From positions 48,050,172 to 48,114,000 of the forward strand of contig CM097885.1 in assembly GCA_044892525.1 (NCBI GenBank): a DNA stretch of 63,829 nt, written 5' to 3'. Both the position numbers and the translations under genes were made by a program. The stretch comes from Schmidtea polychroa. Its lineage: Eukaryota. The first letter of the stretch is position 1, and each line of letters opens with the position of its first letter. Below, piece by piece: positions 8,405 to 8,798 of the stretch. Under the pieces are notes generated by a model. That model was given only the letters and a program-made list of their open reading frames with translations. It was not told where the DNA came from and did no database searches.

Positions 8405-8798
8405 ACAATAAAATGAATATTTAAGCCTTTTGCTGCAAATAATGTATTTAATGAAAGAATTTTCGACTATACGATAGTCCTTGTCAATCTCCTGGAATTT
8501 AGCAATGTTCTTCCCCAAAATACCTTTCAATCTTTCTTTTATTTCCTTTCTCTTAATTCTCATTGGTTGTAAATATAATGAATTGTTTTACTAAAAACTT
8601 TTAAAAGTTTTTAGTAAAACAATTCATTATATTTACAACCAATGAGAATTAAGAGAAAGGAAATAAAAGAAAGATTGAAAGGTATTTTGGGGAAGAACAT
8701 TGCTAAATTCCAGGAGATTGACAAGGACTATCGTATAGTCGAAAATTCTTTCATTAAATACATTATTTGCAGCAAAAGGCTTAAATATTCATTTTATT

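What the first reader, a model, noticed from the sequence alone, without database searches (positions are those of the whole stretch)
8714..8752. Family A carries a hammerhead-like motif with compensatory U3-A8 core
The sequence gives UUGACAA (for CUGANGA), one extra G, a perfect 6-bp stem II, GAA, palindromic AAUU, C17 and a 4-bp stem I (gaga/uuuc). Established: hammerhead C3-G8 is a tertiary Watson-Crick pair that tolerates compensatory swaps, an extra base after A9 occurs naturally, and Penelope-like elements carry minimal type I hammerheads with palindromic stem III thought to act as dimers. Standard CUGANGA searches would miss this motif. Caveat: AAUU leaves no loop, so only a dimeric fold could work.
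Basis: partly seen in the sequence, partly recalled or inferred. Interest (0 to 1): 0.7.

Follow-up and report, generated by a model that had tools for sequence, protein, structure and literature searches.

The report
Penelope retroelement hammerhead, U-A core
This 39-base motif lies in the end repeat of a young, very abundant Penelope-like jumping gene and is likely a genuine but weak self-cutting RNA of a variant type already in print, so it is mostly an ordinary example of a known thing.

Summary
The motif is present as described (8714-8752). It lies in the terminal repeat (pLTR) of a young Penelope-like retroelement: full copies carry an 856-aa RT + GIY-YIG frame and two direct motifs 3,066 nt apart, and the exact core occurs 1,498 times in G000. 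Ten of 13 distant metagenome relatives hold the same minimal hammerhead after their ORF. Positions 3 and 8 form a Watson-Crick pair in all 11 motifs (C-G 7, A-U 3, U-A here), so the motif is real. U3-A8 hammerheads in Penelope elements were published in 2014, and the scan has reported them five times on other DNA. Cleavage is untested and probably weak and dimer- or protein-dependent. The window copy is an ORF-less head-to-head stub and is probably inert. Two side results: relatives carry an A3-U8 core that my searches did not find in print, and genomic stubs stop at a hard edge 2 nt before stem I (8712), suggesting the ribozyme is the very start of the transcript and is usually copied uncut. 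New member of a known kind; low interest.

The parts
8714..8752 (+). Minimal type I hammerhead motif, U3-A8 core; predicted cut after C8748
8453..8491 (-). Identical motif in the left (inverted) arm
8401..8804 (.). Near-perfect palindrome (one mismatched pair): two 5'-truncated 3' ends of the Penelope-like element joined head to head, no ORF
8368..8400 (-). Roughly 30-bp 'tail' of the left arm, running through the element's start codon into the first codons; present at one end only
8298..8367 (.). (ATT)n microsatellite, left flank, likely insertion target
8800..8914 (.). (ATT)n microsatellite, right flank
8712..8712 (+). Hard 5' edge of genomic stubs (8 of 100 copies end exactly here, none 1-29 nt further upstream); inferred RNA 5' end
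8639..8643 (+). CCAAT box 73 nt upstream of that edge (promoter role inferred)
68..172 (+). Short stub of the same family starting inside stem I (3-bp stem I left), with an inverted partner at 1-60
22734..22838 (+). Short stub of the same family starting inside stem I, behind an (AAT)n run
47515..47738 (.). Two older relics of the family (85-88% identity) without the motif

Best explanation
The motif lies in the terminal repeat of a young Penelope-like retrotransposon and is likely a genuine minimal type I hammerhead ribozyme, predicted to cut weakly after C8748 and only when paired with a second copy. Shown: full elements read pLTR(motif) - ATG 65 nt after C17 - 856-aa RT + GIY-YIG frame - 3' UTR - pLTR(motif), with the motifs 3,066 nt apart; the 3-8 pair, both stems and the palindrome covary across distant relatives. 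Inferred: transcription starts about 2 nt before stem I, so a read-through RNA has one motif at its very 5' end and one near its 3' end; their AAUU palindromes pair to build helix III, probably helped by the element's protein; cutting would free a unit-length RNA. Inferred from genomic copies: most templates are reverse-transcribed uncut, from the tail near the start codon, and those primed at the upstream copy run off the RNA 5' end and leave thousands of roughly 100-nt stubs in ATT repeats. The window copy is one such dead inverted insertion.
For: Element anatomy; Pfam RVT_1 3e-14 and GIY-YIG 1.3e-05. 10 of 13 relatives whose ORF end was recovered carry the motif 70-434 nt downstream, on the sense strand; 0 of 3,600 shuffled UTRs do. 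Pair 3-8 is Watson-Crick in 11 of 11 (C-G 7, A-U 3, U-A 1) and the inner palindrome pair in 11 of 11 (A-U 4, G-C 4, C-G 3); neither was required by the pattern. U4 G5 A6 A9 G10.1 C11.1 G12 A13 A15.1 U16.1 are invariant. The same architecture and U3-A8 core are described in S. mansoni Cercyon elements (PMC4209133). 5' ends: 39 of 69 copies that reach U3 stop within 6 nt upstream, against 0 of 34 in a second family of this genome. TATA boxes lie 30-65 nt upstream of the core in 6 of 10 relatives, shuffle mean 0.43.
Against: No cleavage data. The double-hammerhead fold scores -7.6 kcal/mol against -20.3 for the best two-copy fold, and the best monomer fold pairs C17 (tertiary contacts not modelled). 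In one pairwise mutagenesis study only the G-C swap rescued this pair (PMC9901934). At least 94 of 100 copies were copied through the cut site. In the Anolis element, ribozyme mutants did not impair insertion in vitro and no RNA reads ended at the site (PMC11167929). The three A3-U8 relatives group together (93/100), so the covariation rests on about two independent switches. Stem pairing was partly selected by my descriptor. Three of the 13 relatives gave no full motif (L062 UTR breaks off, L068 has 2 nt downstream, L065 has the C3-G8 core but a 2-bp stem I). The start site is inferred, not mapped.
Confidence: 0.75

Rival explanations
1. It is a true hammerhead homologue that no longer cuts to any useful extent; the fold is kept as a binding or folding signal for the element's protein or for translation.
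For: At least 94 of 100 copies read through the site; the active dimer is far from the lowest-energy fold; the weaker U-A and A-U pairs are tolerated in the clade; ribozyme mutants did not block insertion in Anolis; Naiad elements thrive without canonical hammerheads.
Against: The catalytic bases G5, G12, A13, A15.1-U16.1 and a non-G at 17 are kept across 30-48% protein identity. Two clean, independent junctions begin exactly after C17 (the L196 group, one event duplicated ten times, and L206 by its junction letters).
Confidence: 0.18
2. The motif cuts efficiently in vivo, releasing unit-length RNA that circularises and serves as the main template.
For: Two direct motifs frame one unit; model proposed in PMC4209133; a head-to-tail joint is seen in contigs of runs X1 and X13.
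Against: That joint exists in genomic DNA as the tandem pLTR. 5' ends pile up at the 5' edge of the motif, not at the cut (46 of 100 against 6 of 100).
Confidence: 0.05
3. It is a chance look-alike in AT-rich repeat DNA.
For: Folding z = 0.26; no Rfam hit.
Against: Same place and architecture in 10 of 13 relatives, 0 of 3,600 shuffles; covariation.
Confidence: 0.02

Closest known systems
Minimal hammerheads (min-HHR) of metazoan Penelope-like elements, U3-A8 variant of S. mansoni Cercyon (Cervera and De la Pena 2014, PMC4209133; main text parts 1-2 of 4 and supplement file 2 parts 1-2 of 3 read)
   Same: In the pLTR; U3-A8 core (about 1,300 hits reported there); extra base after A9; G10.1-C11.1; long stem II; short stem I; palindrome without helix III; mostly solo truncated copies and inverted pairs 100-700 bp apart.
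   Different: Different family and host genome; copies here are young and uniform; loop 2 is 3 nt; relatives also show A3-U8, absent from the Fig. S3 alignment rows as I could read them.
Natural U3-A8 hammerhead core variants (Perreault et al. 2011, PMC3088659; section 8 and passages read)
   Same: C3-G8 covaries to U3-A8 in nature and is stated to be active in vitro.
   Different: That section names no Penelope-like elements; the motif here has no helix III of its own.
Poseidon element of Anolis carolinensis, PAc (Frangieh et al. 2024, PMC11167929; parts 1-2 of 4 read)
   Same: RT + C-terminal GIY-YIG; hammerhead near the start codon; 30-40-bp tail; preference for ATT; uncut RNA as main template.
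   Different: PAc has C3-G8 and its ORF starts inside the ribozyme; here the ATG is 65 nt after C17 and the linker carries an extra cysteine motif.
Neptune/Nematis clades of EN+ Penelope-like elements (Craig et al. 2021, PMC8557442; introduction and passages read)
   Same: Extra Zn-finger-like cysteine motif between RT and endonuclease; CxxC inside GIY-YIG; pLTRs, inverted 5'-truncated partners, tail.
   Different: Cysteine spacing here is C-x4-C-x6-C, not the CX2-5CxxC quoted; no named references were in my tree, so the clade is not assigned.

Membership tests
Minimal type I hammerhead of Penelope-like elements | Core N3-UGA-N7-N8-A ... GAAA ... UH with Watson-Crick 3-8 | tested here: met
   UUGACAA / GAAA / UC; pair 3-8 Watson-Crick in 11 of 11 motifs
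Minimal type I hammerhead of Penelope-like elements | Extra base after A9 and G10.1-C11.1 closing stem II | tested here: met
   G8725; G8726-C8740; G-C in 11 of 11
Minimal type I hammerhead of Penelope-like elements | Palindrome at 15.2-16.2 in place of helix III | tested here: met
   AAUU here; AAUU, AGCU, ACGU in relatives
Minimal type I hammerhead of Penelope-like elements | Short stem I (3-5 bp) closing the motif | tested here: met
   4 bp with one G-U; changes on both sides at all four pairs, partly selected by the descriptor
Minimal type I hammerhead of Penelope-like elements | Located in both pLTRs of a Penelope-like element | tested here: met
   L054: motifs at 634 and 3700 in 208-bp direct repeats
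Minimal type I hammerhead of Penelope-like elements | Self-cleavage as a dimer | not testable with these tools
   No assay; only contigs were available for RNA; the genomic junction signal at C17 is inconclusive
Canonical tertiary-stabilised hammerhead (Rfam models) | Own helix III and score above an Rfam hammerhead threshold | tested here: not met
   No helix III; no hammerhead hit at gathering or E <= 10
EN+ Penelope-like element | [quoted passage not shown] | tested here: met
   856-aa frame; RVT_1 and GIY-YIG above Pfam cut-offs; CxxC at residue 760
EN+ Penelope-like element | pLTRs, inverted 5'-truncated partners, 30-40-bp tail | tested here: met
   3' ends cluster at or before the ATG (57 of 100) and at +28 to +33 (35 of 100)
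Neptune or Nematis clade | Linker Zn-finger-like motif and phylogenetic placement | tested here: inconclusive
   C-x4-C-x6-C present; no named reference sequences in the tree
Non-LTR retrozyme | Non-coding tandem repeats, each unit with a type I hammerhead | tested here: not met
   Window copy is an inverted pair and the family is autonomous

The most novel reading that the evidence does not exclude
In this clade the hammerhead is the first ~40 nt of the element's capped mRNA and works as a deliberately slow, protein-triggered switch: when protein brings the 5' and 3' motifs together it clips off the cap and ends translation. The 3-8 pair has drifted through C-G, U-A and an apparently unreported natural A-U to tune that rate, and the thousands of stubs are a fossil map of the RNA's 5' end.
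Probability: 0.2. Interest if true: 0.6.

Novelty: new member of a known kind. Interest (0 to 1): 0.25.

Why it matters
The motif itself adds one more family to a published class. What could be useful: a young family with many intact frames gives a clean system for the open question of what hammerheads do for Penelope-like elements; the stub ends predict the RNA start to the base; and one clade supplies three natural Watson-Crick versions of the 3-8 pair for rate comparisons.

Tried and rejected
Rfam at gathering and E <= 10: no hammerhead. Single-strand folding: no better than shuffles. Covariation among genomic copies: uninformative, as copies are nearly identical; a CUGANGA core on the same stem start gave 1 match. 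Sequencing runs: no RNA holder listed; four runs laid were contigs only and cannot show ends, strand or level. Viral contigs: 48 pattern matches, none confirmed. Pile-up at the cut site: 6 of 100 copies end at offsets 9-11. The first 100 of 580 matches lacking C11.1-G12 in register (read by eye; 13 of its 30 loci aligned) were mostly small indels, with a slight excess near the cut that is confounded by T-run microhomology and an older U17 subfamily; inconclusive. An RT stall at the hammerhead as cause of the hard edge is disfavoured, since a second hammerhead family shows none (0 of 34 within 6 nt) and a stall should fall 3' of the fold; not excluded. Tree placement of the family was unresolved. 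Searches for A3-U8 in print: 'hammerhead' + 'A3-U8' 0 papers; 'hammerhead' + 'C3A' + 'G8U' 1 irrelevant paper; no such row in Fig. S3 text of PMC4209133; that paper's supplement file 1 could not be searched, and Lunse et al. on Penelope hammerhead dimers is not held, so A3-U8 may be described there. A paper search with a guessed host genus gave nothing on this family (listing only); the host was not established. Our-findings search by sequence: nothing.

Full report
Observation. The motif is at 8714-8752 exactly as described. Stem I has one G-U pair. A relaxed descriptor found four hits in the window, all of this family. Sixty dinucleotide shuffles gave 0.23 U3-A8 hits each and none with stems as long. 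Folding energy gives no support on its own (z = 0.26), and Rfam has no hammerhead hit, as expected for a motif without helix III.

Surroundings. The motif is in the right arm of a near-perfect 404-bp palindrome (8401-8804) between two (ATT)n runs; its mirror is at 8453-8491 on the minus strand. Two roughly 105-bp stubs of the family lie at 68-172 and 22734-22838, both starting inside stem I, and older relics at 47515-47738.

The host element. In G000 the arm is the 3' end of a Penelope-like retroelement. Locus L054 shows a 208-bp repeat with the motif, an ATG 65 nt after C17, an 856-aa frame, a 3' UTR and the repeat again, with the motifs 3,066 nt apart. Pfam gives RVT_1 (3e-14) and GIY-YIG (1.3e-05). 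All 73 scored protein matches were 98-100% identical, most without stops. The exact core occurs 1,498 times, stem II plus GAAA 1,868 times and a 23-mer just downstream 4,672 times; the reversed controls were 0. Of the first 100 copies on C1, 71 are followed by (AAT)n or (ATT)n, and their 3' ends cluster at or before the ATG (57) and at +28 to +33 (35), the 'tail' typical of these elements. An extra cysteine motif in the linker points to Neptune or Nematis (PMC8557442 introduction), but the clade was not assigned.

Is it a real hammerhead? An alignment of 36 proteins retrieved 43 metagenome loci. Thirteen reach the ORF end, and ten of these carry a minimal hammerhead 70-434 nt downstream on the sense strand; 0 of 3,600 shuffled UTRs do. 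Of the other three, one UTR breaks off, one has 2 nt downstream, and one has a C3-G8 core with only a 2-bp stem I. Across the 11 motifs positions 3 and 8 are C-G seven times, A-U three times and U-A once. The inner palindrome pair is A-U, G-C or C-G in all 11, and 97.5% of cells pair, against 23-41% when partners are slid. The 3-8 pair and the inner palindrome pair were not required by the pattern, whereas the stems partly were. A permutation gives 141 of 200,000, but the three A-U elements group together (93/100), so only about two independent switches are shown. Other families in G000 carry ordinary cores: of the first 100 of 5,788 matches to a looser pattern (control 3), 41 were other families, 34 of them C3-G8, counted by eye.

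Does it cut? Untested. Published minimal hammerheads are inactive as monomers and weak as dimers (PMC4209133). U3-A8 is stated to be active in vitro (PMC3088659 section 8), but in one pairwise mutagenesis only the G-C swap rescued this pair (PMC9901934 passages). The Anolis element's hammerhead cut only with its protein and was dispensable for insertion in vitro (PMC11167929). Here the double-hammerhead fold (-7.6 kcal/mol) is well above the best two-copy fold (-20.3), and the best monomer fold pairs C17. Only contigs were available for RNA, so ends could not be mapped.

What the stubs show. Measured upstream of the 23-mer in 100 copies (C17 is offset 10), 6 end at offsets 9-11, 18 at 14-33, 46 at 34-46, none at 47-75 and 30 beyond; 8 end exactly at 46, which is window 8712, 2 nt before stem I. 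So at least 94 were copied through the cut site, and 39 of the 69 that reach U3 stop within 6 nt. A second hammerhead family in the same genome shows no such edge (0 of 34 within 6 nt). Six of 10 relatives have a TATA box 30-65 nt upstream of the core (shuffle mean 0.43), and this family has a CCAAT box 73 nt upstream of the edge. I infer that the edge is the RNA's 5' end and that stubs arise when reverse transcription, primed in the tail, runs off it. That fits internal initiation in Anolis and a start site shortly upstream of the ribozyme in D. virilis Penelope (start at 371, PMC2377424 passages; ribozyme at 496). A smaller excess of ends after C17 is inconclusive: two clean independent junctions, the rest blurred by T-run microhomology.

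This copy. It has no ORF, its two motifs are on opposite strands, and a transcript across it would fold into a roughly 200-bp hairpin. It is probably inert, or could act only in trans (inference).

Comparison and novelty. U3-A8 minimal hammerheads in Penelope pLTRs are published (about 1,300 in S. mansoni, PMC4209133). Five earlier findings of this scan on other DNA say the same; I had reached that reading before the look-up. All testable defining features of that class are met; cleavage is not testable here. The A3-U8 core of three relatives was not found in two paper searches or in the Fig. S3 text, but one key paper and one supplement file could not be read. Other papers were seen only as listings or passages.

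Verdict. Observation confirmed, interpretation supported, new member of a known kind, interest 0.25.

Noticed in passing
L067:2044, L072:2159, L079:2307 (metagenome contigs): Minimal hammerheads with an A3-U8 core after the ORF of three related Penelope-like elements, which group together in the tree; not found in print.
   Followed up: partly
window 8712 and copies L105-L188: Hard 5' edge of genomic stubs 2 nt before stem I, probably the RNA start.
   Followed up: partly
L196-L205 (G000:C1 15.6-15.9 Mb): A duplicated insertion in which ORF sequence (+72) is joined directly to the base after C17, as a template jump from a cut RNA would give; one event, ten copies.
   Followed up: partly
L219-L249: A second abundant family in G000 with a canonical CUGAUGA minimal hammerhead, also beside AAT/ATT repeats; its ORF was not traced.
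   Followed up: partly
window 10729-14080 / 16874-20232: A 3.4-kb inverted repeat (97.6%) with internal tandem repeats and an inner 193-bp perfect inverted pair at 15139-15331 / 16667-16859; a foldback-like element.
   Followed up: no
window 57440-59404 (-): 654-aa open frame resembling a hAT/Spin transposase (weak zf-C2H2_12 hit; family name from recall).
   Followed up: no
window 29330-31660 (-): 627-aa and 148-aa frames separated by one stop, transposase-like by eye, no Pfam hit.
   Followed up: no
window 47956-48630 (+): Exons of an EGF/insulin-receptor-type gene (GF_recep_IV 6e-17; Furin-like and Recep_L just below cut-off).
   Followed up: no
window 27779-28354 (+): 191-aa integrase-like fragment by eye, no Pfam hit.
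   Followed up: no
window 951-1112, 21440-21588, 38441-38647, 40127-40306, 42121-42289, 44473-44760, 55901-55992: Another dispersed repeat family of about 100-200 bp, and a palindrome at 46748-46881.
   Followed up: no
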